Source: an uncultured Acidimicrobiales bacterium | GTDB lineage: Bacteria > Actinomycetota > Acidimicrobiia > Acidimicrobiales > CAWCAL01 | Reading direction: 5' to 3' | Assembly (NCBI GenBank): GCA_963793475.1 | Contig: CAWCAL010000003.1 | Location: 299,628 to 363,627 of the forward strand | Length of the DNA: 64,000 nucleotides | Part shown: positions 20,009 through 45,302 of the stretch, in pieces | Numbering within the stretch: position 1 is the stretch's first letter | Layout of the letters: each line of letters opens with the position of its first letter | Made by a program: the position numbers and the translations under genes | The notes under the pieces: generated by a model | Told to the model about the DNA's origin: nothing | The model's input: only the letters and a program-made list of their open reading frames with translations | The model's database searches: none

Positions 20009-20915
20009 TTGACTCTCGTGATGACGCGCTCTCCCGACATCGGACCGATCGGCCTCTGGTACTTCACCGAGACCATGACTGCGGCCGAGGCGGCCGAGTT
20101 CGCCCGACGGGTCGAGGCCCTCGGGTACGGCGCCCTGTGGATCCCGGAGACGTTCGGTCGGGACCCGATGGCCCATGCCGCGTGGCTGCTCGCCAACACC
20201 GACCAGCTGGTCGTCGCCACCGGCATCGCCAACATCCACCACCGCCATCCCGGCGCCATGCGCCAAGCCCAGTTGACCCTGGCCGAGCAGTCCGGCAATC
20301 GGTTCATCCTGGGCATGGGGGTGTCGCACGCTCCCATCGTCGAGGGGATCCGGAAGATCACCTATGAGAAGCCGGTGGCCACGATGCGGGCGTACCTCGA
20401 AGCGATGGAGGCCTCTCCCTATCTGGCGATCGAACCGAGCGAACCGACGCCCACGCTCCTGGCGGCGCTGGGACCGAAGATGCTCGAGTTGGCCGGGACC
20501 GCCGCCGACGGGGCCCACCCGTACTGGACCACACCGGAGCACACCGCCACGGCCCGAGCGGTGCTGGGCCCGGACCCGTGGCTCTGCGTCGAGCAGAAGA
20601 TCGTGATGACCACCGATGCGGACGCCGCTCGTGCCGCCGCCCAGCGGCGCGTTGGGCATCTACGCCGACCTGCCCAACTATCGCAACAACTGGCTGCGGC
20701 TCGGGTTCACCGACGCGGACATCGACGACGGTGGCACCGACGACTTCATCGACGCACTGGTGGCCTGGGGCGACGAGAGCGCCATCCGGGATCGGATCCG
20801 CGCCCATTGGGATGCCGGGGCCGACCACGTCTGCCTCCAGCCCCTGCATCCTTCGGGCGAGATGGGTGCCGTCGACTGGAACGCGCTCGAGGCGCTCGCT
20901 CCCAACCGAGCCTGA
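20009..20915 (+). CDS. LLM-class F420-dependent oxidoreductase (one frameshift as assembled)
   Basis: Track ORFs 20009..21361 and 20616..20915 join as ...TDADAARAAAQR | ALGIYADLPNYRNNWLRLGF..., with the frame change near 20645..20652. Past that point the 20009 ORF is out-of-frame read-through. Confidence 0.8.
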
Positions 20916-21001: not shown

Positions 21002-22180
21002 TCAGCGGGCGGCCGGCAGGTCGCTCAGCGGGAGGAGACGGGCGGTCACCTCGGGGGTGCCTTCGGGGCGAACGAAGCGCAGGCCCATCACGCCGTGATC
21101 GTGGTCGGCGGGGTCGACCCAGTTGCCGATCCCCGGGTCCTCGTGCGCCACCACGATGCGGACGATGCCGTCGGATTCGATGGTTGCCCCTTCCATGGAG
21201 AGGTAGCCCTGTCCGGTGAGGTAGTTGGCCAGGTTCTCCATCCAGTGGTTGCAGAGCTGGAAGTTCCAGTGCTGGCAGGTCGGCGGGTCGAACTCGACCA
21301 CCAGCGCCTCGTCCGCGGCCACCCGCCAGTACCCGAACTCGAAGTGCCGGTCGTCGGGTGAGCCTCCGATGCGGCGGTAGGCCTCCTCGGTGAACTCCAG
21401 GTCGTTTTCGAAACCCAACAGCTCCCGGGTCCACTCGCCGTAGTCCGTCTGGAGCCCGAGGATCATCTGCGCGGCGATGGCGAGGCGGGCCGACATCTCG
21501 GCTGGCTCAGGTGTGTCCGGCTGGTCGTGGGGGTCGAGGCACTCGATGGTCAACCGCGGCGCTTTCTGGGTGGACCGGTCGTCGTAGACGAGGCGCATCA
21601 TCAGCTCGCGGGTCTGCTCGACGATGGGGAACCAGTTGCCCTCCTGCTCCTCGACCGCCAGGACGAAATCGACATTGCCGTCGTCGTCGGTGTAGTCGTC
21701 CAGTGCGGCCGTGTGGGGGGTGGCGGCGCGGTTGGGATTGAAGGTGGGCAGCAGCTCCTCGGCGTCGAGCCCGGTCGGGAACGCCCCCACGTCGTCGGGC
21801 ACGGGCGGCGACCAGGCCGACATGTGGACGTACGGCACCGAACCTCGCTGGCCGGTGACGCGATAGCGGTAGCGCGGGTCGACCGGTTGCACGACATGGT
21901 CCTGGTTGGGCGACTGCACGCCGATCCCGCCCTTCAGGGGCGGCGGGATGATCATGAGGTTCTGCGGTCCGGTGGGCGGGGTGCGCTCGATGCAGCGCAT
22001 CGAGGACATGAGCATCATCCGGGTCAGGTAGCGAAAGCCCTCGACGCGGTCCTGAGGGTTGCCGTCGGGCGTTTCACGGATGGCGACGCGCCCGGCCAGC
22101 TTCAGGGTGTCGCAGAAGTCGTCCCAGGCTGCGCCGCTCAGCAAGCGCTCCGCAGCTCGATCGTGTGCTTCTGAATCCAT
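21002..22180 (-). CDS. DUF1214-like protein
   Basis: ATG 22180 ([16 protein letters not shown]...), 392 aa, in frame with track ORF 21002..22369. Sequence [10 protein letters not shown] and the overall pattern resemble DUF1214/DUF1254-type proteins. This is from memory only. Confidence 0.6.
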
Positions 22181-22218
22181 CGGCGATCCCTCGGTCTTTG
22201 CTCCCCTACGCTCCCACA

Positions 22219-23724
22219 ATGGCACACCCCAACATCCTGTTGATCGTGTCCGACGAGGAGCGGCGCAACGGCTGGCTGAGCGGAAAGGTTGCTCTGCCGG
22301 CGCACCGGCGGCTCGCCGCCGACGGGTTGAGCTTCGACCGGCACTACACGCACGCCTCGCCCTGTTCACCGTCCCGGGCCAGCCTCTACAGCGGTCGCTA
22401 CCTGGCCGAACACGCAGTCGTGAACAACGTGAGCTTCCCCACGCACGTGGCGCTCGACCCGGAGATCCCCACCACGGGCAGCCTGCTGCGTGAGGTGGGC
22501 TACGAGAGCGGCTACGTGGGCAAGTGGCACCTCAGTCACTCACCCACGCCCGAGATGTCCGACTACGGCTACAGCGGGTGGACGGGCAACGACAAACACT
22601 TCACGGGAAACCCGTGGACCGGGCGCCACTTCGACCCGATCATCGCGGCCGACGCGCAGCGCTGGCTCGCCGAGCACGCCGGGGGCGCCGCCCCCTGGTT
22701 CCTGACCGTGGCGCTGGTGAATCCCCACGACATCATGTGGTTCCCGATCGATCAGCCGGACTATCAGGACGCCCATCCCGAGCAGCTCGAGATCTTCCGC
22801 TTCATCCAGCAGTACATCCTTGGTGACGAGGTTCGGCCGGATCCGGCGCCGACCGACTACCCCCGGCTCTTCGACGAGCTGCCGGCCAACTTCCACGACG
22901 ATCTCCACACCAAGCCGGAGATCCAGCGGGCCTGGCGGTATGTGCGCAACCACGAGCACATGGTGGGCACGCTCGACCACGACGACCACGACGCCTGGCT
23001 GCGGCAGCTGGACTACTACGCCTGGCTCCACCAGCGACTCGACGACACGCTGACCGGCCTGCTCGGCACGCTGGACGACCTAGGGATCTACGACGACACG
23101 ACCGTGATCTACACCAGCGACCACGGCGACGCCTGCGGGTCGCACGGCCTACGGGCCAAGCTCCCGTGCGTCTACGAGGAGGTCATGGGCGTGCCGCTGA
23201 TCATGAAGAGCCCCGGCGTGGAAGCCGGTTCGACCACCGACGCCCTGAGCACGCACGTCGATCTGGCGCACACCATCGTGAGCCTGGGGGGCGGCGACAC
23301 GGGTGCGTTGTCCGGAGTGTCGCTGGAGCCTGCCCTGGCCGATCCCACTGCTCGGCCCCGCGACGCGGTCTTCTTCGCCCAGGACTCGGCCCAGTCACCA
23401 CACCTGGCCGGCACCCGCTATGCCGTGCGGGGCTTCTACGACGGGGAGACCAAGTACGCCCGGTACTACGGCGTGGGGGGCGGCATCCGCCGGGACGGGA
23501 CGGTCGACGAGGCGGGCAAGACGTTCGACGTCGACGCCGACTTCGACGACCAGGACCACGAGTGGTACGAGACCGCCGAGGATCCGCACGAGCTGAACAA
23601 TCTGGCCCACGACCGCGGCCGCCGCAACGAGCTGCGCGGGTTGTTCGACCGACTCAAGGCGATGGAAGCCACCGAGATGGTCACGCCGTCGGGCGGGTGC
23701 CGACGATGCTGGCTCGTTCCATGA
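22219..23724 (+). CDS. Cys-type sulfatase (arylsulfatase family)
   Basis: ATG 22219 ([18 protein letters not shown]). Formylglycine motif [14 protein letters not shown], plus GKWHL and IYTSDHGD. The 3' end overlaps the convergent dioxygenase gene by 44 nt. Confidence 0.9.
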
Positions 23725-24643
23725 CCCGCACGTGGGGCCAGTAGTCGCTGGCGGCGTAGTGCTGGACGGCCAGGTTGTCCCAGAACGCCACGGCGTCGTC
23801 GGTCCAGCGGAAGCGGCACTGGTACTCGAGGACGTCCGCCTGGGAGCACAGGAGCTGGAGCAGGGCACGACCCTCGTCCACCGGGAGACCGACGAGGTGG
23901 TCGGTGAAGATCCGATTCACGTAGAGCGCCCTGCGGCCCGAGTCGGGATGGCGCACGACGACCGGGTGCTCGACCGGTGGGTACTCCCGGCGCATCTCGG
24001 CCATGGCGTCGGCGTCCAGGCCGTAGCCGAACGCCCGGGCGTAGTCGTGGACGGCGACCATTCCCTCGATCCGTGCCTTGGTGGACTCGTCGAGCCCGTC
24101 GTACGCCGCGTACATGTCGGAGAACAGCGTGTCGCCACCGACCGCCGGCACCGAGAGCGCGTGCAGGATGGCCGCCCGGGAAGGCACGGCTCGCCAGGTG
24201 ACGTCGTGGTGCCAGGCGTTCTCGTACCCTCCGGTGTCGGCCGACTTCTCGAACCGGACCAGCTCGGGGTGCTGCTCGTTGCCCGGGATGAACGGATGCA
24301 CTTCGAGCTCACCGAACCGGGCGGCGAAGGCAACGTGCTGCTCGGCGTCGAGGGGCTGGTCCCGGAAGAACAGGACCTTGTACTCGGTGAGCGCCCGCCG
24401 GATCTCGTCGATGACATCGTCGTCGAGCTCGTCGGCGAGCGAGACCCCGCTGATCTCCGCCCCCAGGGACACGCCGACCGGGTCGACGCTCAGGTGGGTC
24501 CAGTCGAGCTCGTCGAGCCGCGCTCGCTCCATCGAGAGGTGGGCGACCGGACCGACGCTGGCGTCCGAGTCCGGAAGGCGGAACCGCTTCGCCTGCAGGC
24601 TGGCACCCGGGTCCTCGGTTGCCACCACCTTCGTCTTCGTCAT
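23681..24643 (-). CDS. TauD/TfdA-family Fe(II)/2-oxoglutarate-dependent dioxygenase
   Basis: Intact 320-aa ORF. Motifs: YKVLFFRDQPLDAEQHVAFAARFG, WHHDVTW (HxD), GGDTLFSDMYAAYDGL, HPVVVRHPDSGRRALYVN and WDNLAVQHYA. Confidence 0.9.
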   Translation of the reverse strand: MTKTKVVATEDPGASLQAKRFRLPDSDASVGPVAHLSMERARLDELDWTHLSVDPVGVSLGAEISGVSLADELDDDVIDEIRRALTEYKVLFFRDQPLDAEQHVAFAARFGELEVHPFIPGNEQHPELVRFEKSADTGGYENAWHHDVTWRAVPSRAAILHALSVPAVGGDTLFSDMYAAYDGLDESTKARIEGMVAVHDYARAFGYGLDADAMAEMRREYPPVEHPVVVRHPDSGRRALYVNRIFTDHLVGLPVDEGRALLQLLCSQADVLEYQCRFRWTDDAVAFWDNLAVQHYAASDYWPHVRVMERASIVGTRPTA

Positions 24644-25179: not shown

Positions 25180-25656
25180 ATGACGGGCGCCGCCGACCCG
25201 GTCAACCGCCGTCCTGTCCAGGTTGCGTTCGAGGGTTCGGTCATCGTCTCGTGCCCGCCATCGCAGGCCTTCGCCATTGCGGACATGGCGACTCTTGCTC
25301 AGTGGAACCCTGCCGTCGCCCGATCGGAGTTGGTGAGCGGCCAGCCACTGGTCGAAGGGGCTGAGTACGCCTGCACGATGGCGAGGGGGCCGTGGAAGCT
25401 GACGGTCCACCCGGTGCTGGTCGAGGTCAGGCAAAACACGCTGGTTCGCTACGCAGGAACATTCGGATTCGCGCCCAGCGAGGACTCGATCGGATTCGCG
25501 CCCGAGGGGGACGGCACACGGCTCACCTTCCGCAACCTTTCGAGGCTGCCCGGCTGGACCCGACCACTTCGGTGGGCCATCACCAAGGCCTTCCGCCGGC
25601 AAGCTGACCGCTCCATCCGTGGAGCCGCCCGGTATCTCGAGTCCGTCGGTCCTTGA
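25180..25656 (+). CDS. SRPBCC (START/polyketide cyclase-like) family protein
   Basis: Intact 158-aa ORF. Its size and pattern (VIVSCPPSQAFAIADMATLAQWNPAV... TRLTF) are consistent with the SRPBCC fold. Confidence 0.65.
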   Translation: MTGAADPVNRRPVQVAFEGSVIVSCPPSQAFAIADMATLAQWNPAVARSELVSGQPLVEGAEYACTMARGPWKLTVHPVLVEVRQNTLVRYAGTFGFAPSEDSIGFAPEGDGTRLTFRNLSRLPGWTRPLRWAITKAFRRQADRSIRGAARYLESVGP

Positions 25657-25695: not shown

Positions 25696-27144
25696 TCAGC
25701 CCGCGACGCGTGTCGCCTCGGCTGCGTACGCCTCCCTGATCTCGACCCCGGTGGTGCCCGACGTCGGTTCGATGGTCTCGCCCGACCCGAGACTCCACCG
25801 GGCCGCGAGAGCGGCGGAACTCCTGCCCGAGCCGATCGCAGCTGCCTGCAGCGCCGCTCCGGTCGCGACCGCCTCGTCGGCGTCGGGGACCACGATGGGG
25901 CGCCGCGCAGGTCGGCACAGCGCTGGCGGTAGGCGCCCGATCGGGCTCCCCCGCCGATGAGGTGCACCCGACCGCTCGTGTCGACGCCGGCGCCGCCCAA
26001 GGCGTCGAGCCCGGCAAGGAGACCGCACAGCACGCCATCGTGGGCGGCACGCGCCAGTTCGTCACGGGTCGTGCTCGTCCGAAGTCCCGCTATCGAGCCG
26101 GATGCGTCCGGGAGGTTGGGGGTCCGTTCGCCGTCGAAGTACGGGACCAGCACGGTGCCGCCGAACTTGGAAGGCGCCTGCAGCGCCAATTCGCTCAAGC
26201 CCGGAGCGTCCGTCCCCATCCAGGCGGCCACCGTGTCGGTCACCTTCGTTGCGTTGAGGGTGCAGACGAGCGGCAGGAACGCCCCGGCTGCGTCGGCGAA
26301 GCCGGCCACCAGGCCCGACGGGTCGGCCGTGCGCCACCGGGGACACGGCGTAGACGGTCCCCGAGGTGCCGAGCGAGAGCGCCAGGTCACCGGTCCGGAG
26401 GCCCAGTCCCAGTGCCGCAGCCATGTTGTCGCCGGTGCCCGGTCCCACGGGGATGCCCGCCGGAAGACCGAGCACGTCGGCCGCGTCGGTGGTCAGCTCG
26501 CCCGCCGGCGTATCGGGGCCCAGCACCTCGGGTAGCCGCTCCAGCCACGCATCGGCGTCGTCCACGGCCGCTCCCAACAGCTCGGGTCGGTAGCGATTCT
26601 CCGAGGGATCGAACCAGCCGGTACCCGAGGCGTCGCCCCGATCGGTGACGTGCCGACCGGTCAGCCGCCAGGTCAGGTAGTCGTGGGGAAGCATCACCCT
26701 CCGAACCCGGGCCAGCGCGTCGGGTTCGTGCCGGGCAACCCAGGCCAGTTTGCTCACGGTGAACGCGGCGACGGGCACACTCCCGCACCCGCCGGCCCAT
26801 GCCGGCGCGCCCATCTCCTGGACCAGCTCGGTCGCCGAGCCTGCCGAGGTGGTGTCGTTCCAGAGCTTGGCCGGCCGCACCGGCTGCCCGGCGTCGTTCA
26901 GGAGCACCAGCCCGTGCTGCTGCCCTGCGACAGCGACAGCGGACACCTCGACGCGGTGCTCGCCCAGCTGACTCATCGCCGAGACCAGGGCGTCCCACCA
27001 CGCGGCCGGATCCTGCTCGGATACCGGCGGTTCGGTGGACGGGTGGGCCGCGGCACCCCGCGCCACCACGGCACCGGTCTCCAGATCGCGAGCCTCGACC
27101 TTGGTGGACTGGGTCGACGAGTCGACCCCGACGACCAGCGCCAT
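25696..27144 (-). CDS. xylB: Xylulokinase-like FGGY kinase (two frameshifts as assembled)
   Basis: Pieces from track ORFs 26062..27693, 25449..26390 and 25696..26028 join into one protein. The sequence runs MALVVGVDSSTQSTKVEARD...GTGDNMAAALGLG...LGTSGTVYAVSP | TADPSGLVAGFADAAGAFLPLVCTLNATKV...LIGGGARSGAYRQRCADLRGAP | IVVPDADEAVATGAALQAA. Frame changes fall near 26330 and at the G-run 25897..25900. ATG 27144 overlaps the stop of the upstream lyase gene (TGATG). Confidence 0.85.
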
Positions 27145-28556
27145 CAGGCCGGAGCGGCTGCGTCGGCCCCCGGGGGCACGTCCTGCATCGTGTCCATCAT
27201 CCCCTCCATGATCCCCCGGATGAACTCGTCCGCCTCGTCGGTGAGGCCGCCCGCGACGCCTCCGTAGATGGCGGCGCTGAACGGATCTTCTCCCTTGTGC
27301 TCGTGGCCGTAGGCCACCGCCTCGGCCAGGTCCTCTCGGAACGCATCGGCGACCCCGTCCTGGGTCTGCGGCCGGGTGACGGCCATGTGGATGGCGTTGG
27401 GGTACTGCTGGCCGTTGAAGCGCCAGCCCTTCTTCCGCATGAAGTCGTTGACGTGGTAGATGTCGAACTCGTCGCTGGTGAAACTGAAGCAGAAGGTCGG
27501 GTCGCCCATGATCCGCAGCGAGTCGTGGGACCGTACCGCCTCCTTCATGGCGTCGGCGGTGGCGAAGATCTTCTCGGCGTACCCGAGGTAGCCGTCGCGA
27601 CCCAGGCTGACCATGGCCGCCCACGTCGCAGCCAGCAGGCCGCCCGACCGGGAGCCGTCGATCCCGGGCGAGAAGTACTTTCCGCCGGTCCAATCGGTCA
27701 GGTAGAAGTACTGGCCGTTGCGCAGGGCCCGGTTGCGGAAGGCGAGCACGGAGGTGCCCTTGAATCCGTAGGCGTACTTGTGGGTGTCGGCGGAGATGGA
27801 CGTGACCCCCGGCACCGAGAAGTCGAACGGTTCGATCGGGTACCCGAGCTCGCGTCCCCAGGGCAGGATGAACCCTCCGAGGCAGCCGTCGACGTGCAGG
27901 CCGATCTCGCGTTCCAGCGCCAGCGCGCCCATGTCGGTGATGGGGTCGACGGTGCCGTAGCCGTAGTTGCAGGCCGATCCGACCATGGCGATCGTCTGGT
28001 CGTCGACCAACGCGGCGACGGCATCGAGGTCGGCCTTCGTGGTCTCCGGATCGACGGGCGCCCGCCGCATCTCGACACCCAGCAGGTGGCAGGCCTTGTC
28101 GAACGCCGGGTGCCCCGTCTCGGGCTTGACGAAGTTGGGCCGCTCGACGCCGCGGGCGGTGGCCTCTTCCCGGTAGGCCAACAGGGCGTGCAGGATGCTG
28201 CCGCTGCCGCCCGAGGTGACCATGCCGACCGGATCGGACTCGGGTCCCGCCTGTGCGGCTCCCAGCATGTCCAGGGTCATGGAGATGATCTCACCCTCGA
28301 ACCGCGTCGCGCTGGGACACATGTCCCGCTGGAGGACGTTGACGTGACCGAAGAGGCCGTACGCCTCGGTCATGAAGTCGTAGTGATCGTGATCCCCGCA
28401 GTACATGGTCCCCGAGCAGCGTCCGGTCTCCCAGAACTCGTCCTCGGCGGCGGCGATGGTGGAGAGCTCGGCGGTGATCTCGTCGCGACTCCGACCGTGC
28501 TCGGGCATGCCCCGGTTCACCGGGTACCGATCGGCGTACGGATAGTCGTTGCTCAT
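27144..28556 (-). CDS. PLP-dependent lyase/decarboxylase (group II), sphingosine-1-phosphate-lyase-like
   Basis: ATG 28556 (MSNDYPYADRY), 470 aa. Motifs: GMVTSGGSGSILHALLAYRE, HVDGCLGGFILPW and the PLP-lysine motif SADTHKYAYGFKGTS. Confidence 0.8.
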   Translation of the reverse strand: MSNDYPYADRYPVNRGMPEHGRSRDEITAELSTIAAAEDEFWETGRCSGTMYCGDHDHYDFMTEAYGLFGHVNVLQRDMCPSATRFEGEIISMTLDMLGAAQAGPESDPVGMVTSGGSGSILHALLAYREEATARGVERPNFVKPETGHPAFDKACHLLGVEMRRAPVDPETTKADLDAVAALVDDQTIAMVGSACNYGYGTVDPITDMGALALEREIGLHVDGCLGGFILPWGRELGYPIEPFDFSVPGVTSISADTHKYAYGFKGTSVLAFRNRALRNGQYFYLTDWTGGKYFSPGIDGSRSGGLLAATWAAMVSLGRDGYLGYAEKIFATADAMKEAVRSHDSLRIMGDPTFCFSFTSDEFDIYHVNDFMRKKGWRFNGQQYPNAIHMAVTRPQTQDGVADAFREDLAEAVAYGHEHKGEDPFSAAIYGGVAGGLTDEADEFIRGIMEGMMDTMQDVPPGADAAAPA

Positions 28557-28581
28557 GGAGGCTCCCCGTGGATGGCGGTGG

Positions 28582-30123
28582 TCAGGGCTTCGGCGTGCTG
28601 GCGAGCTCGGCGACGATGGGCCGGACGGCGTCGAAGGCCGCCTCGAACTGACCGTGCCGATGTTCGTACAGCCCCCGGAGCGATGGGTCCGGTTCAAAGG
28701 TTCGGTCGTGGTCGACCAGTTCGCCAAGTTCGTGTCGGTCCAGGACCCCCTGGTGGTGCCAGGCCAGCAGTGCCGCGCCGCGGGCGACGGCCTGCTCTGG
28801 AGGCGAGATCCGGTGCACCGGACGGTGCACGACGTCGGCCAGGATCTGGCACCACTGGTCGGACCGAGCCGCGCCGCCGACGAAGCCGGCGTCCACGATG
28901 GGTTCCTCGACGAACGAATCGACGTGCGGGAGCAGCCAGCGCAGGTTGTGTGCGGTCGCCTCCACCGCCGCTCGAACCAGGTCGGTGCGCGTCGTCTCGA
29001 GGGACACGTTCAGGAACCCGCCCCGCATCGACGGATCGCTCTGGGGCGCGAGCGAGCCGTGGAACCACGGCAGGCACATCGCCCCGTTGGCGCCGGGTGG
29101 CGACGTGGCGATCGCGGTGTCCAGCAGGGCGAACGGCCGCTCGCGCCCGTCGGCTCCCAACGCGTCGTCGGTCTGGAACAGCGAGGCCAGGACCTGCTGG
29201 ACGACGCGGCCGCCCAGCCCGTTCTCGGCCCACACGAGGTACTGGTCGAGGAACGGTCCGGGCATGGACAGGATCTCGTGGTCCAGGTCGACCTTCATCG
29301 ACTCGACCGTGTCGACCAGGACGCTGGTGGTGCCGATGGCCAGACCGCACCGACCCTCCGCCAGGGCGCCGGTGGCGACCGCGTCGGTGGACGTGTCGTT
29401 GGTTCCGGCGGAGACCTCGGCCCGGGCGGGGACACCGAGCCGCTCGGCGACATCGGGCCGGACGGTGCCGACCGTGCTGCCGACCGGGACCAGCGGCGGC
29501 AGGCGCGCTGGATCCACGGCGGCCATCTCGATCAGCTCGGCGTCGTAGGTGGTCACCCCGAGCGAACGGTTGTCACACAGCTGCGACATGAACATGGAGT
29601 GCTGCGTGGCCGAGATCGTGCCGGTGAAGCGGGCCACGACGTAGTCCATGGCCTCGAGGTATGCGGTCGTGGCACCACGGACTGCTTCACCCTCCAGCAC
29701 CAGCAGGTGCCCCAGGGCCAGGCCCCCGCCGACGGGCGGGATCCCGTGACGTTCGACCCAGCGGACGAAGGCGTCGGGGTGCCGTTCCATGATGGCGAAC
29801 GACGGCGTCGTGCCGCGGCGGTCCTGCCACATGACCATCGGCCCGACCGGCAGGCCCTTGGGACCGACGGGAACGATCGAAGAGTACTGCGAGCAGACCC
29901 CGATCGAGCCGACCGACGCCGCGATGGTCGGCGACGACCGTGTGAGGAACAGGATCGCGGCCTCGACCTGCTCCCACAGGTGGCCGGCGTCCTGGGTGAC
30001 CGACTCGCCCCGCACGATGGTCTGGAGCGGGCGGGTCGTCGACGCCTGGATCCCGCCGTCCCCGTCGATCAGGACGGCCTTCACGTTGGTGGTGCCGACG
30101 TCGATCCCCAGTGCGGCCGTCAT
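28582..30123 (-). CDS. FGGY-family carbohydrate kinase
   Basis: Intact 513-aa ORF. Motifs: ALGIDVGTTNVKAVLID, GTNDTSTDAVATG, GLAIGTTSV and FVGGAARSDQWCQILADV. Confidence 0.85.
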   Translation of the reverse strand: MTAALGIDVGTTNVKAVLIDGDGGIQASTTRPLQTIVRGESVTQDAGHLWEQVEAAILFLTRSSPTIAASVGSIGVCSQYSSIVPVGPKGLPVGPMVMWQDRRGTTPSFAIMERHPDAFVRWVERHGIPPVGGGLALGHLLVLEGEAVRGATTAYLEAMDYVVARFTGTISATQHSMFMSQLCDNRSLGVTTYDAELIEMAAVDPARLPPLVPVGSTVGTVRPDVAERLGVPARAEVSAGTNDTSTDAVATGALAEGRCGLAIGTTSVLVDTVESMKVDLDHEILSMPGPFLDQYLVWAENGLGGRVVQQVLASLFQTDDALGADGRERPFALLDTAIATSPPGANGAMCLPWFHGSLAPQSDPSMRGGFLNVSLETTRTDLVRAAVEATAHNLRWLLPHVDSFVEEPIVDAGFVGGAARSDQWCQILADVVHRPVHRISPPEQAVARGAALLAWHHQGVLDRHELGELVDHDRTFEPDPSLRGLYEHRHGQFEAAFDAVRPIVAELASTPKP

Positions 30124-30178
30124 GGTTCCTCACCATAGGTCTGTTGTGCTCGACTACAGGCCTGGCCATTCCGCGCCG

Positions 30179-32320
30179 ATGGGAGCGACGATGCGCAGCG
30201 TCTTCTCCACGTTCCTGTTGATCCTCACGGGTCTCGTGGCGACCGCGCCCGTCGCGTCCGCGCAGGCGGAGGGTCCGGGCGACGATCCCAACGGAGACGG
30301 CCTTCGGTTCGTCGGCGCTACGACGTTCCGGCCCGAGCCCGATCGCGGCGTCGTCGTGGTGACCGCCGAGCTGGACCTGACCAACGTCCAAGCCGACGAG
30401 CGAACCGCGGACGGCGTCCTCGAGTACTTCTTCCCCGGCGTGATCCTCCCGGTCATCGACTCGGCCCGGGACGTCCGAGCCATCTCGAACGGCACCGAGA
30501 TGGACGTTGCGATCACCGAACAGGACGGGGCCACCGACGCCGCCGAGGTCACCTTCCCCAGCAACCTCCGGTTCGGTCAGGAGCGCCGGGTCGTCGTCTC
30601 CTACGAGGTGCCTTCCGCCCCGGCCAGGAGCGAGGACGTCACCCGGGTCAACCCCGCCTACGTCGCATTTCCCGCCTTCGCGGTCGGTGACCGCGGCCTC
30701 GCCTCGGTCACCGTCGAGCTCCCGGTCGGCTATCAGCCCGACATCGTGGGATCGGACCCCGAGTTCGGCGTCACCGAGGGGACGGTCTTCACCGCCCCCG
30801 ACATCGAGGACCCCGAGAGCTGGTGGTCCATCGTCACCGCCCAGGACGACGATCGTCTGGCCGACCTGACGATCGAGCAGCCGGGACGCTCGTTCAACAT
30901 CCGGTCCTGGCCCGGCGACGACGAGTGGGCCGCGTTCGTGGCGGGGTACACCGGCGATCCTCTGGACGAGATGGCCCGGCTGGTGGGCGAACCCTGGACC
31001 GACGGGGAGCCCTACGACATCGTCGAGGCCTACAGCCCCTACCTGTACGGCTATTCCGGCTGGTTCGAACCGACCGAGCGGCGGATCGTGATCGGCGAGG
31101 ACCTGGACCCGACGGTCGTGCTTCACGAACTGGCCCACGGATGGTTCAACGGGGACCACATCAGCCAGCGCTGGATCAACGAGGGGTTGGCCAACGAGTT
31201 CGCGGCGCGGACGCTGGACGCGATCGGCGAGACCAGCGACGTCGTCGTGTTGAGCCCGGACGAGATCATGTTTCCACTGGCCACGTGGGACGACGCTCTG
31301 ACCGATGCGGGTGGCGACGATGTCGCGGCCGTCGAGGAGTACGGGTACGACCGCGCCTGGTACGTGATCCATGCGATCACTGCGGACATCGGCCTCGACG
31401 GGATGCAGCTCGTTCTCGACGCCGTCTTCGATCGGGCGCCCGCTTACGCAGGAGACGGGCCCGAGACCCTGACCTCCGCCGCGGTCGACGACCGGCGCTT
31501 CCTGGATCTGCTGGAACGGGTCGGAGGGTCGGAGACCGCCGACGTCCTGCTCGAGCGGTACGTGATGACCGGGACCGACGCCGATCTGCTGGAGGACCGG
31601 GCCGCTGCGGGCGCCCGGTACGACGAGCTCGACGCCGCCGGTGGCGAGTGGGCGGTGCCCCTCGGTATCCGCCGGGCGATGGAGGGGTGGAGCTTCGAGC
31701 GGGCCGACGAGGGGATCGATGCCGCGATGGTGATCCTCGACCGACGACAGGAACTGACCGACCTCGCCGCCGACCTCGATCTGGCGATGCCGGAGGGGAT
31801 CGAACCCGCCTACGAGGATGCCCGCCTGCCGCTCGATGGCCTCGCCGACCGTATGGGGGCGCAGATCGGTGCGGCACGGGAGATCGAACGGATCACCGAC
31901 GCCTCGCGCGGCGTGCCCGGACTGATCGCCCGCATCGGGCTGCTGGGGACCGCCCTCGATCCGTTGGTCGACCAGGCCCGGGCCGCGTTCGAGGCCGGCG
32001 ATCTCAGCAGCGTCGACGACGCGGTCCAGGCGTTCGACGAGGCCCACAGCGAGGCGGAAGGTGAGGGCTGGGCCCGCATCGGCGCCGTGGTGCTGGCGCT
32101 CGCAGCGCTGGCCGGCGTCTCGCTGCTCGCGGCTCGGCTGCGGCGAGGTCGCTCGCACCCGTTCGACGACACTCACCTGGCGCTGGACACGCCGCCCGAC
32201 GATCCTCCCGAGGTCGAGGACATCTACGCACCGCCGGTGCCCTACGACCCGTCGGCGGGACACCCCCCTCCGGAGGCCGACGCCGAACTGCCGCGACGGG
32301 AACCGTCGGTCCAGGCCTGA
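30179..32320 (+). CDS. Secreted, C-terminally membrane-anchored gluzincin-like metallopeptidase (HExxH...E)
   Basis: In-frame ATG 30179 or 30191. Signal peptide MRSVFSTFLLILTGLVATAPVASAQA, the zinc motif VVLHELAHGWF followed by WINEGLANEF, and a C-terminal TM (IGAVVLALAALAGVSLLAA). Confidence 0.7.
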   Translation: MGATMRSVFSTFLLILTGLVATAPVASAQAEGPGDDPNGDGLRFVGATTFRPEPDRGVVVVTAELDLTNVQADERTADGVLEYFFPGVILPVIDSARDVRAISNGTEMDVAITEQDGATDAAEVTFPSNLRFGQERRVVVSYEVPSAPARSEDVTRVNPAYVAFPAFAVGDRGLASVTVELPVGYQPDIVGSDPEFGVTEGTVFTAPDIEDPESWWSIVTAQDDDRLADLTIEQPGRSFNIRSWPGDDEWAAFVAGYTGDPLDEMARLVGEPWTDGEPYDIVEAYSPYLYGYSGWFEPTERRIVIGEDLDPTVVLHELAHGWFNGDHISQRWINEGLANEFAARTLDAIGETSDVVVLSPDEIMFPLATWDDALTDAGGDDVAAVEEYGYDRAWYVIHAITADIGLDGMQLVLDAVFDRAPAYAGDGPETLTSAAVDDRRFLDLLERVGGSETADVLLERYVMTGTDADLLEDRAAAGARYDELDAAGGEWAVPLGIRRAMEGWSFERADEGIDAAMVILDRRQELTDLAADLDLAMPEGIEPAYEDARLPLDGLADRMGAQIGAAREIERITDASRGVPGLIARIGLLGTALDPLVDQARAAFEAGDLSSVDDAVQAFDEAHSEAEGEGWARIGAVVLALAALAGVSLLAARLRRGRSHPFDDTHLALDTPPDDPPEVEDIYAPPVPYDPSAGHPPPEADAELPRREPSVQA

Positions 32321-37297: not shown

Positions 37298-38548
37298 ATG
37301 GATCTTCCAGCGCAGGGCCGCCCGGTCGCCGATGTTCTTGCCGATCTCGAGTCGAAGCGCCGCGACGACGTCGCCTGGTCGGAGGGTCGCACCTTCGGCA
37401 TGGTCTACGACGGGGGCCCGTCGGTCCACGAGGTGATCGACGGGGCGGCGCGGATGTTCCTGCACGACAACGCGCTCAACACGCAGGCGTTTCCCTCGTT
37501 GGGCGCCATCCAGTCCGAGGTGGTGGGCTGGACCGCACGCCTGCTGCACGGGCCCGAGACCGCGGCAGGGTTCCTGACCAGTGGTGGAACCGAGTCCATC
37601 CTGTGCGCCGTGCTGGCCGCCCGAGAACGCGCCGAGAAGGAACGCCGCGTCGACCAGCCCGAGATGGTCGTGGCCGAGAGTGCGCACGCCGCGTTTCACA
37701 AGGCGGCTCATCTCTTCGGGATCACCCTGCACAAGACTGCGGTCGGCCCCGACTGGCGCGTCGATCTCGACGCCATGGCCGACGCCGTCAACGACAACAC
37801 GATCCTGGTGGTCGGGTCGGCCCCCCAGTACCCGCAGGGTGTCGTGGATCCCATCCCCGAGATCGCGGCGCTCGCCGCATCGGTCGGCGCCAACTGCCAT
37901 GTCGATGCGTGCATGGGGGGCTTCGTGCTGCCCTTCGCCGAGATGCTCGGGCGCGAGGTGCCACCATGGGACTTCCGCGTCGATGGCGTCACCTCGATCT
38001 CGGCCGACATCCACAAGCTGGGGTACGCCCCCAAGGGCGTGTCGGTGGTGCTCCATCGCACCAAGGAGCTGCGGCGGTTCCAGACGTTCGTCTTCGATGG
38101 CTGGTTGGGTGGGTTCTACGCCTCCCCGAACCTGCAGGGCACCCGATCGGGCCTGCCCATGGCCAGCGCATGGGCGGTCATGCAACACCTGGGGACCGAC
38201 GGGTACTGCGACCTGACCCGCGTCACCCTCGACGCGGCCGATCGGCTCAGGGCCGGCATTGCCGAGCTCGACCGCGTGCGGGTGCTCGGCGACGGCGGGT
38301 ACCACCTGATTGCGCTGGCGGCGGCGGACGACGATCGGCCGCTCGACATGTTCGCCGTCGGCGACGCTCTGGCTGAGCACGGCTGGTTCCACGATCGGCA
38401 GACCCCGCCCGATTCGCTCCACTCGACGGTGAGCAACGGCAACGCTCCCCATGTCGACGACTACCTTGCCACCCTACGGTCCTGTATCGCGGCCGTCGGC
38501 GCCGACCAGGCCGACGATCGCAGCACCAACTACGCAACCCTGGAGTAG
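37298..38548 (+). CDS. PLP-dependent lyase/decarboxylase, sphingosine-1-phosphate-lyase-like (second paralog)
   Basis: Intact 416-aa ORF. Motifs: GFLTSGGTESILCAVLAARE, HVDACMGGFVLPF and the PLP-lysine motif SADIHKLGYAPKGVS. Confidence 0.8.
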   Translation: MDLPAQGRPVADVLADLESKRRDDVAWSEGRTFGMVYDGGPSVHEVIDGAARMFLHDNALNTQAFPSLGAIQSEVVGWTARLLHGPETAAGFLTSGGTESILCAVLAARERAEKERRVDQPEMVVAESAHAAFHKAAHLFGITLHKTAVGPDWRVDLDAMADAVNDNTILVVGSAPQYPQGVVDPIPEIAALAASVGANCHVDACMGGFVLPFAEMLGREVPPWDFRVDGVTSISADIHKLGYAPKGVSVVLHRTKELRRFQTFVFDGWLGGFYASPNLQGTRSGLPMASAWAVMQHLGTDGYCDLTRVTLDAADRLRAGIAELDRVRVLGDGGYHLIALAAADDDRPLDMFAVGDALAEHGWFHDRQTPPDSLHSTVSNGNAPHVDDYLATLRSCIAAVGADQADDRSTNYATLE

Positions 38549-38556
38549 ACCCGACC

Positions 38557-39684
38557 ATGCGCACCCCGATCTGTGATCGACTCGGCATCGAGTTCCCGAT
38601 CTTCGCGTTCACCCACTGCCGCGACGTCGTCGCCGCCGTGTCGAACGCGGGCGGCATGGGTGTGCTCGGTGCGGTGGGTTTCTCGCCCGAGCAGCTGGCG
38701 GTCGAGCTCGAATGGCTCGACGAGCACGTCGCCGACGGCAAGACCTACGGCGTCGATGTCGTCATCCCTGAGAAGTACGAGGGCATGGATGAGATCGATC
38801 CCGCGCAGCTCGAGGCCGACCTGGCCGAGATGATCCCTGAGGAGACCCGCGCCTTCGCCGAGAAACTGCTGGCCGACGCGGGCGTGCCCGAGATCCCCGA
38901 GGACGAGCGCGACTTCGCCGAGCTCCTGGGCTTCGGTGCGCTGATGGCGCAGCCGCTGATCGAGGAGGCCCTCTCCCACGAGAAGTGCAGCTTGATCGCC
39001 AATGCGCTGGGGACCCCACCCGAGGACATCGTCACGCTGGTGCAGGAGTCCGGCCGAGCGATCGGCGCCCTGTGCGGGTCGGCCAAACATGCGCTCGCCC
39101 ACAAGGAGGCCGGCCTGGACTTCGCCGTGTGCCAGGGCGGCGAGGGCGGCGGCCATACCGGAGATGTGGGCTCGATCGTCCTGTGGCCCGAGGTCATCGA
39201 CGCGGTCGGGCCGGACCTGCCGGTGCTGGCCGCGGGGGGCATCGGCAACGGGCGTCAGATGGCCGCGGCCATGGCCATGGGAGCGCAGGGGGTGTGGACC
39301 GGCTCGCTCTGGCTCACCGTCGAGGAAGCCGATGTTCCGCCGGGCCAGATGCAGAAGTACCTGGAAGCAGGCACTCGCGACACCGTGCGCTCCCGGTCGT
39401 GGACCGGCAAGCCCGCCCGGATGCTGCGCAACAAGTGGACCGACGCCTGGGACGATCCCGAGACGCCGGCGCCGCTGGGTATGCCGCTGCAGACGATGGT
39501 CACCGTCGACGCCATGGCGCGCGGCCACCGCTACCCCGAGCAGGCCGTCGACGTGAACTTCTATCCCGCCGGCCAGGTCATCGGGCTGACCGACAGGCCG
39601 CGCCGCACGGCCGATGTGATCTACAGCCTGGTCGAGGAGTTCATCGACGCCACCCAGCGCCTGCAGCGCCTCCTGGAGGCGTAG
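38557..39684 (+). CDS. Nitronate monooxygenase (NMO / 2-nitropropane dioxygenase-like FMN enzyme)
   Basis: Intact 375-aa ORF. Motifs: LGIEFPIFAFTHCRDVVAAVSNAGGMGVLG, CQGGEGGGHTG and LAAGGIGNGRQMAAAMAMGAQGVWTGS. Confidence 0.88.
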   Translation: MRTPICDRLGIEFPIFAFTHCRDVVAAVSNAGGMGVLGAVGFSPEQLAVELEWLDEHVADGKTYGVDVVIPEKYEGMDEIDPAQLEADLAEMIPEETRAFAEKLLADAGVPEIPEDERDFAELLGFGALMAQPLIEEALSHEKCSLIANALGTPPEDIVTLVQESGRAIGALCGSAKHALAHKEAGLDFAVCQGGEGGGHTGDVGSIVLWPEVIDAVGPDLPVLAAGGIGNGRQMAAAMAMGAQGVWTGSLWLTVEEADVPPGQMQKYLEAGTRDTVRSRSWTGKPARMLRNKWTDAWDDPETPAPLGMPLQTMVTVDAMARGHRYPEQAVDVNFYPAGQVIGLTDRPRRTADVIYSLVEEFIDATQRLQRLLEA

Positions 39685-45266: not shown

Positions 45267-45302
45267 GCACGAACCCTAGATTGCTCCAGTACGGTTTCGG
45301 GC

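What the first reader, a model, noticed from the sequence alone, without database searches (positions are those of the whole stretch)
25696..30123. Operon pairing two FGGY kinases with a sphingosine-1-phosphate-lyase-like PLP enzyme
The gene order on the minus strand is FGGY kinase (30123..28582), then a 25-nt gap, then an S1P-lyase-like PLP enzyme (28556..27144), then a xylulokinase-like kinase whose ATG overlaps the lyase stop. Characterised S1P lyases cleave a phosphorylated 2-amino-1,3-diol into an aldehyde plus phosphoethanolamine, and FGGY kinases phosphorylate sugars and polyols. Tight coupling of a lyase of this type to two sugar-type kinases is not a pathway I know. One idea is phosphorylation-dependent retro-aldol catabolism of an amino-polyol or sphingoid-like compound. 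The family also contains plain decarboxylases, so the chemistry is open. xylB has two apparent frameshifts.
Basis: inference. Interest (0 to 1): 0.6.

Follow-up and report, generated by a model that had tools for sequence, protein, structure and literature searches.

The report
Kinase–lyase pair for sphingoid-base breakdown
A sugar-kinase-like gene sits next to a sphingosine-1-phosphate-lyase gene here and in more than 100 loci from bacteria of several phyla, which suggests it is the unidentified bacterial kinase that primes sphingoid bases (or similar 2-amino-1,3-diols) for cleavage; the third gene, xylulokinase, is a local passenger.

Summary

The three genes are not a conserved trio. xylB follows the lyase only here and in the closest relative, where it is intact. 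Its indels resemble other single-base indels in this window, so they are probably assembly errors.

The first kinase (K1) belongs to a distinct FGGY subfamily that scores below every curated specificity model. In 57 of 57 informative metagenomic loci a K1-type gene lies beside a lyase of this clade on the same strand. The same pairing occurs in Acidimicrobiia, Mycobacterium, Binatia, Hydrogenedentes and Burkholderia, including beside the characterised B. pseudomallei/thailandensis S1P lyases.

The lyase keeps every PLP-binding and substrate-phosphate residue of solved S1P lyases and is far from the decarboxylases.

Recurrent extra genes are a histidinol-phosphatase-like phosphatase, aldehyde dehydrogenase, acyl-CoA synthetase, N-acyl amidase, a lipid-linked envelope system and γ-glutamyl-ethanolamine genes.

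Most likely mechanism (inferred): K1 phosphorylates C1-OH of a sphingoid base, and the lyase yields a fatty aldehyde plus phosphoethanolamine. I found no paper linking the two families.

The parts
28582..30123 (-). K1: FGGY-family kinase of the lyase-associated subfamily, 513 aa. Predicted kinase for the C1 hydroxyl of a 2-amino-1,3-diol (sphingoid base).
   Evidence: It has FGGY_N and FGGY_C domains and scores below every NCBIfam specificity model; the best is XylB at 176 bits against a cutoff of 380. The DxGT(T/S) motif, the catalytic Asp (GTNDT, D243) and GGAARS are conserved in the family alignment A2. It is 34-56% identical to other lyase-adjacent FGGY kinases but only 25-29% identical to xylB or glycerol-kinase-like genes.
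27144..28556 (-). S1P-lyase-family PLP enzyme, 470 aa, soluble form without an N-terminal membrane segment.
   Evidence: PDB matches: 5k1r (B. pseudomallei S1PL2021) 575 bits, StSPL 414, human and yeast SPL about 300, glutamate decarboxylase 72. Conserved residues are the Schiff-base K260; D223, C225, H149 and H259; the substrate-phosphate residues Y52, N73, Q76, K266 and T50; and Y431 (residue roles from PMC6148460 Table 3 and PMC5234717).
25696..27144 (-). xylB (xylulokinase), start overlapping the lyase stop, interrupted by two 1-bp indels. A lineage-specific addition to the operon.
   Evidence: The fragments score 285 and 115 bits to TIGR01312. The intact orthologue L085:4227-5669 scores 451 bits, above the 380 cutoff. 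tblastn shows frames -2, -3 and -2 at 82-91% identity with no internal stops.
26333..26333 (-). First xylB frameshift: one extra C relative to L085 (GGTGG[C]GCACGG).
   Evidence: Pairwise alignment.
25897..25897 (-). Second xylB frameshift: one missing G relative to L085 (GCGCCCC[-]ATCG). It restores the original frame.
   Evidence: Pairwise alignment.
30124..30178 (.). 55-bp divergent intergenic region between K1 and the metallopeptidase gene. It includes the K1 ribosome-binding site (30126..30134) and is the presumed promoter region.
   Evidence: Sequence read. The neighbour's start was placed by homology to L084. The sigma-70 consensus scan found nothing.
25180..25656 (+). Convergent SRPBCC/Polyketide_cyc2 gene. 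It marks the downstream end of the operon and is not part of the module.
   Evidence: Pfam PF10604, 64.5 bits.

Best explanation
The core feature is a conserved two-gene catabolic module.

1. K1, a specialised FGGY-family kinase, uses ATP to phosphorylate the primary (C1) hydroxyl of a 2-amino-1,3-diol. The substrate is most likely a sphingoid long-chain base (sphinganine, sphingosine or phytosphingosine) freed from ceramide-type lipids.
2. The adjacent S1P-lyase-family PLP enzyme binds this phospho-amino-diol as an external aldimine. It cleaves the C2-C3 bond by retro-aldol chemistry, giving a (fatty) aldehyde plus phosphoethanolamine.
3. In other genomes the same module carries genes for the remaining steps:
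   - an N-acyl amidase or lipases upstream of the kinase step;
   - aldehyde dehydrogenase and acyl-CoA synthetase for the aldehyde;
   - a histidinol-phosphatase-like enzyme that would dephosphorylate phosphoethanolamine;
   - glutamine-synthetase-like, dehydrogenase and gamma-glutamyl-hydrolase genes that would assimilate the ethanolamine.

This would be the bacterial counterpart of the eukaryotic sphingosine kinase, S1P lyase and fatty aldehyde dehydrogenase route, with a kinase that is not homologous to eukaryotic sphingosine kinases.

xylB is an ordinary xylulokinase that joined the operon only in this lineage. Its two frameshifts are most likely assembly indels.

Shown here: gene anatomy, family placement, active-site conservation, and obligate K1-to-lyase linkage across phyla. 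Inferred: the kinase substrate, the direction of flux, and the lipid nature of the substrate.
For: Linkage:
- From the lyase side, 41 of 82 genome loci have a K1-type kinase immediately upstream (about 27) or downstream (about 14).
- From the kinase side, 57 of 80 metagenome loci have the lyase adjacent on the same strand. The other 23 are too short on one or both sides, and no locus with at least 1.2 kb on both sides lacks the lyase.
- The loci span 47-75% GC.
- Named hosts are Acidimicrobiia, Mycobacterium and Binatia, B. thailandensis, P. oxyphila, B. paludis and Hydrogenedentes. The lyase clade itself is also found in MAGs assigned to Rhizomicrobium and Steroidobacteraceae, where adjacency was not examined.
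- Lyase-adjacent kinases form one subfamily (230-540 bits to each other) and are distant from xylB and glycerol-kinase-like genes (35-99 bits).
- Lyases without an adjacent kinase are concentrated in one clade, 24 of 38.

Chemistry:
- The substrate-phosphate residues Y52 and N73 are invariant in all 137 lyases of these loci, K266 in all, and Q76 in all but one. The Schiff-base Lys is kept.
- The closest characterised enzymes, S1PL2021 and S1PL2025 (about 60% identical), cleave S1P in vitro with a Km of about 48 uM (PMC5234717). Their B. thailandensis orthologues lie directly downstream of a K1-family kinase.

Lipid context:
- B. paludis operon: K1, HisN-like phosphatase, DUF1329, DUF1302, RND, BNR, lyase, MFS, acyl-CoA synthetase.
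- The DUF1302/DUF1329/BNR/RND set has fitness phenotypes on fatty esters (bioRxiv 10.1101/2020.07.04.188060; 10.1101/072470).
- A penicillin-amidase-family acylase follows the lyase in L041, L053 and L172.
- PAF-acetylhydrolase-like lipases lie upstream in L081, and an acyltransferase and an alpha/beta-hydrolase lie in L041.
- Aldehyde dehydrogenase lies between lyase and kinase in L099 and L102.
- Wax-ester synthase (WS/DGAT) genes lie nearby in 4 loci.

Fate of phosphoethanolamine:
- A HisN-like phosphatase (248 bits to the histidinol-phosphatase model) is present in at least 10 loci.
- GS-like, SDR, aldehyde dehydrogenase and C26 hydrolase genes occur in L003, L010, L013, L045 and L071. They mirror the gamma-glutamyl-ethanolamide pathway (PMC9397018).
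Against: - No FGGY kinase is known to act on a lipid or an amino alcohol. K1 shows no extra domain or membrane-binding segment.
- The in-vitro kcat of the Burkholderia enzymes on S1P is very low (0.015 per s, PMC5234717), so S1P may not be their native substrate.
- In most Acidimicrobiia-type lyases, including this one, one tunnel-lining position (St L344) is a conserved Lys (K293). It is hydrophobic in the Burkholderia type.
- Accessory lipid genes occur in only a minority of loci, and most loci carry just the pair.
- Here and in L003 the extra genes are sugar or polyol kinases (xylB; a glycerol-kinase-like gene plus a GlcD-like oxidase), which could point to a polar product.
- About half of the lyase genes have no K1 within 8 kb.
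- The Burkholderia lyases have been described as secreted virulence factors (title of Custodio et al. 2016, cited in PMC6712060). That sits awkwardly with an ATP-dependent cytoplasmic partner.
Confidence: 0.55

Rival explanations
1. Same kinase-then-lyase logic, but the substrate is a small soluble 2-amino-1,3-diol or amino-polyol (serinol, 2-amino-butanetriol, an amino-deoxy-alditol). The aldehyde product would be a sugar-like compound that enters central metabolism through sugar or polyol kinases such as xylB.
For: - All characterised FGGY kinases act on soluble sugars or polyols (NCBIfam models).
- K1 and the lyase are soluble proteins without membrane segments.
- xylB is translationally coupled here and in L085.
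- L003 has a glycerol-kinase-like gene and a GlcD-like oxidase after the lyase.
- Lys at tunnel position 293.
- Low kcat of the Burkholderia enzymes on S1P (PMC5234717).
Against: - xylB is adjacent in 1 of 102 other loci, and the glycerol-kinase-like gene in one.
- Recurrent accessory genes are lipid-related: Ntn acylase, lipases, acyl-CoA synthetase, DUF1302/DUF1329/RND/BNR, WS/DGAT.
- No sugar isomerase, aldolase or sugar ABC transporter recurs.
- Members of this lyase clade do cleave S1P and complement yeast lacking S1P lyase (PMC5234717, PMC6148460).
- No abundant natural source of such amino-polyols is known (my knowledge).
Confidence: 0.22
2. Biosynthetic direction. K1 makes phosphoethanolamine (or another phospho-amino-alcohol). 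The lyase runs as an aldolase, condensing it with an aldehyde. The HisN-like phosphatase then releases a free sphingoid-like amino-diol. This would be a serine-palmitoyltransferase-independent route to such lipids.
For: - The retro-aldol step is reversible in principle (PMC6148460).
- A HisN-like phosphatase sits between kinase and lyase in several loci, reminiscent of histidinol-phosphate to histidinol.
- An acyltransferase and WS/DGAT lie nearby in some loci.
Against: - No reverse reaction has been observed for any S1P lyase (PMC6148460).
- Aldehyde dehydrogenase, acyl-CoA synthetase, N-acyl amidase and ethanolamine-assimilation genes all fit breakdown, not synthesis.
- Known ethanolamine kinases belong to another family (my knowledge).
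Confidence: 0.07
3. Functionally unrelated neighbours. The PLP enzyme is a decarboxylase or a secreted host-directed S1P lyase, and the FGGY genes are ordinary sugar kinases that happen to share an operon.
For: - Database names are 'decarboxylase' and 'xylulokinase'.
- The Burkholderia and Legionella lyases are discussed as virulence factors (PMC6712060).
- xylB really is an ordinary xylulokinase.
Against: - 57 of 57 informative K1 loci carry the lyase, on the same strand and often with overlapping stop and start codons.
- K1 fails every sugar-kinase equivalog cutoff.
- The lyase retains the phosphate-binding residues of S1P lyases and scores only about 72 bits to decarboxylases.
- The hosts are mostly free-living soil and water bacteria.
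Confidence: 0.04

Closest known systems
Burkholderia pseudomallei/thailandensis S1P lyases S1PL2021 and S1PL2025 (BPSS2021/BPSS2025; BTH_II0309/0311; PDB 5K1R)
   Same: - Same lyase clade: 575 bits, about 60% identity.
- Same short soluble architecture without an N-terminal membrane domain.
- Same active-site set, including Gln in place of the His129 of StSPL.
- The B. thailandensis locus has a K1-family FGGY kinase directly upstream.
   Different: - Burkholderia has two tandem lyase copies.
- The published papers treat them as host-directed virulence factors. The kinase goes unmentioned in the one primary paper I could read in full (the word 'kinase' occurs 0 times in PMC5234717).
- Tunnel position 293 is Val in Burkholderia and Lys here.
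- There is no xylB in Burkholderia.
Eukaryotic sphingoid-base degradation: sphingosine/LCB kinase (DAGK family), S1P lyase (SGPL1/Dpl1p), fatty aldehyde dehydrogenase, acyl-CoA synthetase
   Same: - Same predicted order of reactions.
- The lyase is homologous (about 300 bits to the human and yeast enzymes).
- Aldehyde dehydrogenase and acyl-CoA synthetase appear in some bacterial loci.
   Different: - The kinase is an FGGY-fold enzyme, unrelated to DAGK-type sphingosine kinases (PMC6148460 for the latter).
- The enzymes are soluble and operon-encoded.
- Phosphoethanolamine appears to be dephosphorylated and assimilated as nitrogen rather than fed into phospholipid synthesis.
FGGY carbohydrate kinases of known specificity (XylB, GlpK, GntK, AraB, LsrK, FucK, RhaB)
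   Same: Same two-domain fold, ATP-binding motifs and catalytic Asp.
   Different: - K1 scores far below all curated cutoffs: the best is 176 bits against 380.
- The sugar-binding motif region is replaced by a family-specific SQYSS(I/T)VP motif.
- It is linked obligately to a PLP lyase rather than to sugar isomerases or transporters.
Actinobacterial amino-alcohol catabolism by kinase plus PLP phospho-lyase, and the gamma-glutamyl-ethanolamide pathway (GlnA4)
   Same: - The logic of activating an amino alcohol by phosphorylation before a PLP enzyme acts (the first system is recalled from my knowledge, not tested here).
- GS-like, dehydrogenase, aldehyde dehydrogenase and amidohydrolase genes accompany the module in 5 loci (PMC9397018).
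   Different: - Here the PLP step is C-C cleavage by an S1P-lyase homologue, not phosphate elimination by a class-III aminotransferase homologue.
- The kinase is FGGY, not the APH/choline-kinase type.

Membership tests
Sphingosine-1-phosphate lyase family (EC 4.1.2.27; group II decarboxylase fold) | Fold-type I PLP domain of the group II decarboxylase type | tested here: met
   PF00282, 64 bits, above the cutoff of 27.
Sphingosine-1-phosphate lyase family (EC 4.1.2.27; group II decarboxylase fold) | Closer to characterised S1P lyases than to GAD, MfnA or other decarboxylases | tested here: met
   575, 414 and about 300 bits to bacterial, human and yeast S1P lyases, against 72 bits or less to GAD and 57 to MfnA structures. 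It is below the MfnA and GAD NCBIfam cutoffs.
Sphingosine-1-phosphate lyase family (EC 4.1.2.27; group II decarboxylase fold) | Schiff-base Lys and the PLP cup/sandwich residues (St K311, H310, D, C276, H201, G168/T169, S353) | tested here: met
   K260, H259, D257, D223, C225, H149, G117/S118 and S302. Residue list from PMC5234717 and PMC6148460.
Sphingosine-1-phosphate lyase family (EC 4.1.2.27; group II decarboxylase fold) | Substrate-phosphate pocket (St Y105, N126, H129, K317, A103) and the C-terminal Tyr (St Y482) | tested here: met
   Y52, N73, Q76 (Gln as in BpS1PL2021), K266, T50 and Y431. Y52, N73 and K266 are invariant and Q76 nearly so (one Arg) across 137 related lyases.
Sphingosine-1-phosphate lyase family (EC 4.1.2.27; group II decarboxylase fold) | Cleavage of a long-chain base 1-phosphate to aldehyde plus phosphoethanolamine | not testable with these tools
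   Demonstrated only for the homologues S1PL2021/2025 at about 60% identity (PMC5234717).
Sphingosine-1-phosphate lyase family (EC 4.1.2.27; group II decarboxylase fold) | Hydrophobic substrate tunnel | tested here: inconclusive
   Of the four positions mutated to humanise StSPL, three are aromatic or hydrophobic here (Y198, F295, M450) and one is Lys (K293).
FGGY carbohydrate kinase superfamily (K1) | FGGY_N and FGGY_C domains with the phosphate-binding DxGT motif, catalytic Asp and GGxA adenine motif | tested here: met
   PF00370 at 79.7 bits and PF02782 at 83.2 bits. D8, G10 and T11, D243 in GTNDT, and G416/G417 are conserved in A2.
Xylulokinase XylB (TIGR01312), as K1-family proteins are often named | Score at or above the curated equivalog cutoff | tested here: not met
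   K1 scores 176 bits against a cutoff of 380, and the B. thailandensis K1-type kinase scores 225. K1 should not be called xylulokinase.
Xylulokinase XylB (TIGR01312), third gene | Score at or above the curated equivalog cutoff; intact reading frame | tested here: inconclusive
   The intact orthologue in L085 scores 451.5 bits, above 380. The window copy is split by two 1-bp indels, with fragments of 285 and 115 bits. Reads are needed to tell assembly error from pseudogene.
Eukaryotic-type sphingosine/LCB kinase (DAGK catalytic domain) | DAGK_cat domain | tested here: not met
   Only FGGY domains are found in K1. K1 may work like an LCB kinase but is not a member of that family.
Lyase-associated FGGY subfamily (defined here) | Mutual similarity well above that to other FGGY kinases; SQYSS(I/T)VP motif; adjacency to an S1P-lyase gene | tested here: met
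   34-56% identity within the subfamily against 25-29% to xylB and K2. The motif served as the search pattern. Adjacency holds in 57 of 57 informative loci.

The most novel reading that the evidence does not exclude
The K1 subfamily is the missing bacterial sphingoid-base (long-chain-base) kinase: a 'sugar kinase' fold recruited to phosphorylate a lipid amino alcohol. K1 plus lyase would then define a widespread, previously unrecognised cytoplasmic pathway by which soil and water bacteria, including Burkholderia pseudomallei/thailandensis, consume sphingolipids for carbon and nitrogen. That would recast the Burkholderia 'virulence' S1P lyases as parts of a catabolic operon.
Probability: 0.5. 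Interest if true: 0.78.

Novelty: new variant of a known kind. Interest (0 to 1): 0.66.

Why it matters
- Bacterial S1P lyases have been studied as isolated enzymes or as effectors that attack host S1P. The source of their substrate in free-living bacteria has not been explained. In the papers I could search, FGGY kinases and S1P lyases are never linked.
- An obligately linked kinase gives a concrete, testable candidate for the first committed step of bacterial sphingoid-base catabolism.
- It would extend the FGGY family to amino-alcohol or lipid substrates.
- It would correct widespread 'xylulokinase' and 'decarboxylase' annotations.
- It suggests that abundant uncultured Acidimicrobiia take part in sphingolipid turnover in soil.
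- It offers a new angle on the Burkholderia enzymes, including a second drug target in the same operon.

Tried and rejected
- Trio synteny: rejected. xylB is found only in L085, and a different second FGGY (glycerol-kinase-like) only in L003.
- Decarboxylase reading: rejected on PDB scores and active-site residues.
- xylB as a pathway member through a pentose product: no xylA or other xylose genes appeared among the window ORFs I annotated, and it does not recur elsewhere.
- xylB as a decaying pseudogene: not supported. The out-of-frame middle segment is 91% identical at protein level to the intact orthologue, without stops. Similar single-base indels break two unrelated genes.
- Plasmid collection search for annotated orthologues found only the short (about 400 aa) paralogue family at about 35% identity, which did not inform the question.
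- De novo clustering of neighbours across about 100 loci found no further universally conserved partner.
- Promoter and terminator consensus scans found nothing.
- The divergent 713-aa neighbour is a secreted gluzincin peptidase, conserved only in the closest relatives, and is not part of the module.
- A look-up of the window's own contig through the 100%-identical kinase failed.
- Custodio et al. 2016 could not be read.
- I did not run structure prediction. Without coordinates it could not discriminate between substrates.

Full report
**1. Observation**

The window is about 69% G+C. Its best protein matches are to Acidimicrobiales/Acidimicrobiia MAGs.

On the minus strand I confirm the following:
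- An FGGY kinase, here called K1, at 28582..30123. It is 513 aa, with FGGY_N and FGGY_C domains.
- A 25-nt spacer containing a GGGGAG ribosome-binding site.
- A 470-aa PLP enzyme at 27144..28556.
- A third gene whose ATG (27144..27142) overlaps the lyase TGA by one base.

The third gene matches xylulokinase but runs through frames 1, 2 and 1. Aligned to the intact orthologue of the closest relative (L085, lyase 94% identical), it has one extra C near 26333 and one missing G near 25897.

A convergent SRPBCC gene (25180..25656) ends the operon. A divergently transcribed gene for a secreted, C-terminally anchored gluzincin peptidase starts 55 bp upstream of K1.

**2. What the three proteins are**

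*The PLP enzyme.*
- It lies firmly inside the S1P-lyase clade. It scores 575 bits to B. pseudomallei S1PL2021 (5K1R), 414 to Symbiobacterium StSPL and about 300 to the human and yeast enzymes. It scores only about 72 bits to glutamate decarboxylase and about 57 to MfnA.
- I used the residue roles tabulated in PMC6148460 (Table 3) and PMC5234717.
- The window protein keeps the Schiff-base Lys (K260) and the PLP cup and sandwich residues (H259, D257, D223, C225, H149, G117/S118, S302).
- It also keeps the substrate-phosphate pocket: Y52, N73, Q76, K266 and T50, with Gln at 76 as in the Burkholderia enzyme. The C-terminal Tyr (Y431) is present too.
- Across 137 related lyases from the loci collected here, Y52, N73, K266 and the Schiff-base Lys are invariant apart from one unreadable residue, and Q76 varies once.
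- The enzyme is therefore built to bind a phospho-amino-alcohol head group. It is a lyase, not a decarboxylase.

*K1.*
- It has the FGGY catalytic apparatus: DxGT, GTNDT with the catalytic Asp, and GGAARS.
- It falls far below every curated specificity model. The best is XylB at 176 bits against a cutoff of 380.

*The third gene.*
- It is an ordinary xylulokinase. The intact L085 orthologue scores 451.5 bits against the same cutoff.

**3. Synteny: the decisive evidence**

*From the lyase side.* A degenerate-pattern scan of one genome per species returned 80 loci, nearly all Acidimicrobiia. With loci from exact-protein look-ups this gave 82 distinct loci.
- A K1-type kinase lies immediately upstream of the lyase in about 27 loci.
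- A more divergent K1-type kinase lies immediately downstream in about 14.
- About 41 have none within the flank.
- On a neighbour-joining tree of the lyases, built on the full pooled set of genome and metagenome loci, arrangement follows clade. Of the 38 lyases without an adjacent kinase in that set, 24 form a single clade.

*From the kinase side.* A metagenome scan with a K1-family alignment returned 80 loci at 30-56% identity to K1.
- 57 have the lyase adjacent on the same strand. Of these, 30 are kinase then lyase and 21 are lyase then kinase. Four have a phosphatase gene in between, and two have an aldehyde dehydrogenase in between.
- 12 contigs are too short to judge, and 11 cover only one side.
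- No locus with at least 1.2 kb on both sides lacks the lyase.
- The pooled loci span 47-75% G+C.

*Named organisms with the pair:*
- B. thailandensis: FGGY kinase, then lyase, then two small reverse genes, then a second lyase. These are the orthologues of the characterised BPSS2021/2025.
- Paraburkholderia oxyphila.
- B. paludis.
- A Hydrogenedentes MAG.
- A Mycobacterium MAG and a Binatia MAG.

*One kinase subfamily.* All lyase-adjacent kinases belong together. They score 230-540 bits and are 34-56% identical to each other, against 35-99 bits and 25-29% identity to xylB or to the glycerol-kinase-like gene of L003.

*xylB is not part of it.* Among 102 non-redundant kinase+lyase loci, xylB follows the lyase only in L085.

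The K1-lyase pair passes it about as strongly as a gene pair can. The asymmetry is what one expects if K1 exists to feed the lyase: the lyase sometimes occurs without K1 nearby, but K1 never occurs without the lyase.

**4. What accompanies the pair**

Most loci contain only the pair, but the recurring extras are coherent.

| Extra gene(s) | Where |
|---|---|
| Inositol-monophosphatase-fold phosphatase, best model histidinol-phosphatase HisN (248 bits, cutoff 275) | At least 10 loci, between or beside kinase and lyase |
| Aldehyde dehydrogenase | L099, L102, L133, P. oxyphila, L013/L045 |
| Acyl-CoA synthetase and MFS transporter | B. paludis (P. oxyphila has the MFS and an aldehyde dehydrogenase) |
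| DUF1329, DUF1302, RND and BNR | Embedded in the B. paludis operon; DUF1329/DUF1302 after the P. oxyphila kinase |
| Penicillin-amidase-family Ntn acylase directly after the lyase | Two Acidimicrobiales loci (411 and 357 bits) and the Hydrogenedentes locus |
| PAF-acetylhydrolase-like lipases, alpha/beta-hydrolase, acyltransferase, WS/DGAT | L081, L041, L003, L086, L117, L166 |
| GS-like ligase, short-chain dehydrogenase, aldehyde dehydrogenase, C26 gamma-glutamyl hydrolase | L003, L010, L013, L045, L071 |

- Histidinol phosphate is itself a 2-amino-alkyl phosphate. A phosphoethanolamine phosphatase is therefore a natural reading for the HisN-like enzyme.
- A phosphatase acting on the kinase's own product would instead create a futile cycle.
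- The DUF1329/DUF1302/RND/BNR four-gene envelope system is cofit in several bacteria. It is required on the fatty esters Tween 20 and butyl stearate in Pseudomonas putida (bioRxiv 10.1101/072470; 10.1101/2020.07.04.188060).
- The Ntn acylase family includes long-chain N-acyl amidases (my knowledge), so a ceramidase-like deacylation step is plausible.
- The GS-like set has the same enzyme types as the gamma-glutamyl-ethanolamide route to glycine plus glutamate described for Streptomyces (PMC9397018).

**5. Mechanism proposed**

*Shown:* family membership, active-site conservation and obligate linkage.

*Inferred:*
1. K1 phosphorylates the C1 hydroxyl of a 2-amino-1,3-diol.
2. The lyase forms the external aldimine and cleaves C2-C3, giving an aldehyde plus phosphoethanolamine.
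3. The aldehyde is oxidised and activated to acyl-CoA.
4. Phosphoethanolamine is dephosphorylated, and the ethanolamine is assimilated.

*Why I favour long-chain sphingoid bases as the substrate:*
- The only characterised members of exactly this lyase clade cleave S1P (Km about 48 uM). They complement yeast lacking S1P lyase (PMC5234717, PMC6148460).
- Those enzymes sit beside a K1-family kinase.
- The accessory genes are lipid-oriented.

*Cautions:*
- No FGGY kinase is known to use a lipid or amino alcohol.
- The Burkholderia kcat on S1P is only 0.015 per s (PMC5234717).
- One tunnel-lining position is a conserved Lys in the Acidimicrobiia-type enzymes. This is St L344, one of four positions changed to 'humanise' StSPL, as inferred by comparing the 3MAD and 5EUD sequences. 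It is hydrophobic in the Burkholderia type.
- The substrate tail may therefore be shorter, hydroxylated or otherwise more polar than sphingosine in this lineage.
- A soluble amino-polyol remains a live rival, which I put at about 0.2.

**6. The frameshifts**

- The two xylB indels cancel each other.
- The out-of-frame middle segment still encodes XylB at 91% identity, without stops.
- Two unrelated genes in the window carry similar isolated single-base insertions relative to L001. One is a luciferase-like monooxygenase near 20632, and the other is an ion-channel gene near 16818.
- K1, the lyase and about 12 kb of neighbouring genes are intact.
- Long-read consensus error is the simplest explanation, but only the reads can settle it.

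**7. Comparison with what is known, and novelty**

- The lyase is a new member of a known family.
- The pathway logic matches the eukaryotic route from sphingosine kinase through S1P lyase to fatty aldehyde dehydrogenase. The kinase, however, is not homologous to DAGK-type sphingosine kinases (PMC6148460).
- Full-text searches for FGGY together with S1P lyase, sphingosine kinase, sphingoid base, phosphoethanolamine, serinol or amino alcohol found no paper connecting them.
- The detailed Burkholderia enzymology paper never mentions a kinase.
- Public annotations call K1-type proteins 'xylulokinase' or 'carbohydrate kinase', and the lyase 'decarboxylase' or 'aminotransferase'.
- I rate this a new variant of a known kind: a known catabolic logic with a non-orthologous, uncharacterised kinase family. 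It is supported by comparative genomics only.

**8. Verdict**

| Item | Verdict |
|---|---|
| Observation | Confirmed |
| Functional coupling of K1 and the lyase | About 0.9 |
| K1 supplies the lyase substrate | About 0.7 |
| The substrate is a sphingoid long-chain base | About 0.5-0.55 |
| Interest | 0.66 |

Noticed in passing
window 37298..38548 (+), with 38557..39684 (+): A second S1P-lyase-family paralogue of 416 aa lies 9 kb from the first. It scores 330 bits to StSPL and 283 to BpS1PL2021. It keeps the Schiff-base Lys and the Y/N/K phosphate residues but lacks the C-terminal extension that carries St Y482. A nitronate-monooxygenase-like gene follows it. The same short family (about 35% identical to the main lyase) occurs on Sinorhizobium, Rhizobium and B. 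gladioli plasmids. Its function is unknown.
   Followed up: partly
window ~20632 (luciferase-like monooxygenase 20033..20903) and ~16818 (ion-channel gene 16113..17166): Single-base insertions relative to the orthologues in L001 break two further genes. Together with the two xylB indels this suggests scattered consensus errors in the assembly. The sulfatase at 43693..45270 also lacks its N-terminal domain part in frame.
   Followed up: partly
window 30179..32320 (+): A 713-aa protein is transcribed divergently from K1. It has a signal peptide, a HELAH-x18-E gluzincin motif and a C-terminal membrane anchor, and no sequence relative in the PDB. It is conserved next to K1 only in the closest relatives (L001, L084, L085).
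   Followed up: partly
L041:9401-11860, L053:8274-10445, L172:9586-11745: A penicillin-amidase-family (Ntn) acylase lies directly after the lyase in two Acidimicrobiales loci and one Hydrogenedentes locus. In L053 its start overlaps the lyase stop. It is a candidate ceramide or N-acyl-amino-alcohol deacylase.
   Followed up: partly
L171 (Burkholderia paludis JPGL01000008.1), whole locus: A long operon reads: K1-type kinase, HisN-like phosphatase, DUF1329, DUF1302, RND/MMPL, BNR protein, lyase, MFS, acyl-CoA synthetase. The poorly understood DUF1302/DUF1329/BNR/RND envelope system is embedded inside the kinase-lyase module, which may help assign it a substrate class.
   Followed up: partly
L087/L088 (B. 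thailandensis chromosome 2), 5175-11422: The two characterised Burkholderia S1P-lyase genes lie directly downstream of a 549-aa K1-family FGGY kinase. In addition, lyases of this clade occur in B. paludis, B. pseudomultivorans, Paraburkholderia oxyphila, Rhizomicrobium and Steroidobacteraceae. [quoted passage not shown]
   Followed up: yes
window lyase residue K293 (codon at about 27678..27680, minus strand); alignment of 137 lyases: The position equivalent to the StSPL tunnel residue L344 is Lys in 115 of 137 lyases of these loci. It is hydrophobic in the Burkholderia-type subset. This may mark a different tail specificity.
   Followed up: partly
L003:3649-12270: One Acidimicrobiia genome has an extended operon: GS-like ligase, C26 gamma-glutamyl hydrolase, SDR, K1, lyase, GlcD-like FAD oxidase, glycerol-kinase-like FGGY. 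An alpha/beta-hydrolase and WS/DGAT follow. The roles of the oxidase and the second kinase are unexplained.
   Followed up: no
window 22165..24643 and 43693..45270: The region also contains two sulfatase genes and a TauD-family dioxygenase close to the operon, an AtuA-family gene at 60327..61901 and several acyl-CoA dehydrogenases. I saw no evident link to the kinase-lyase module.
   Followed up: no
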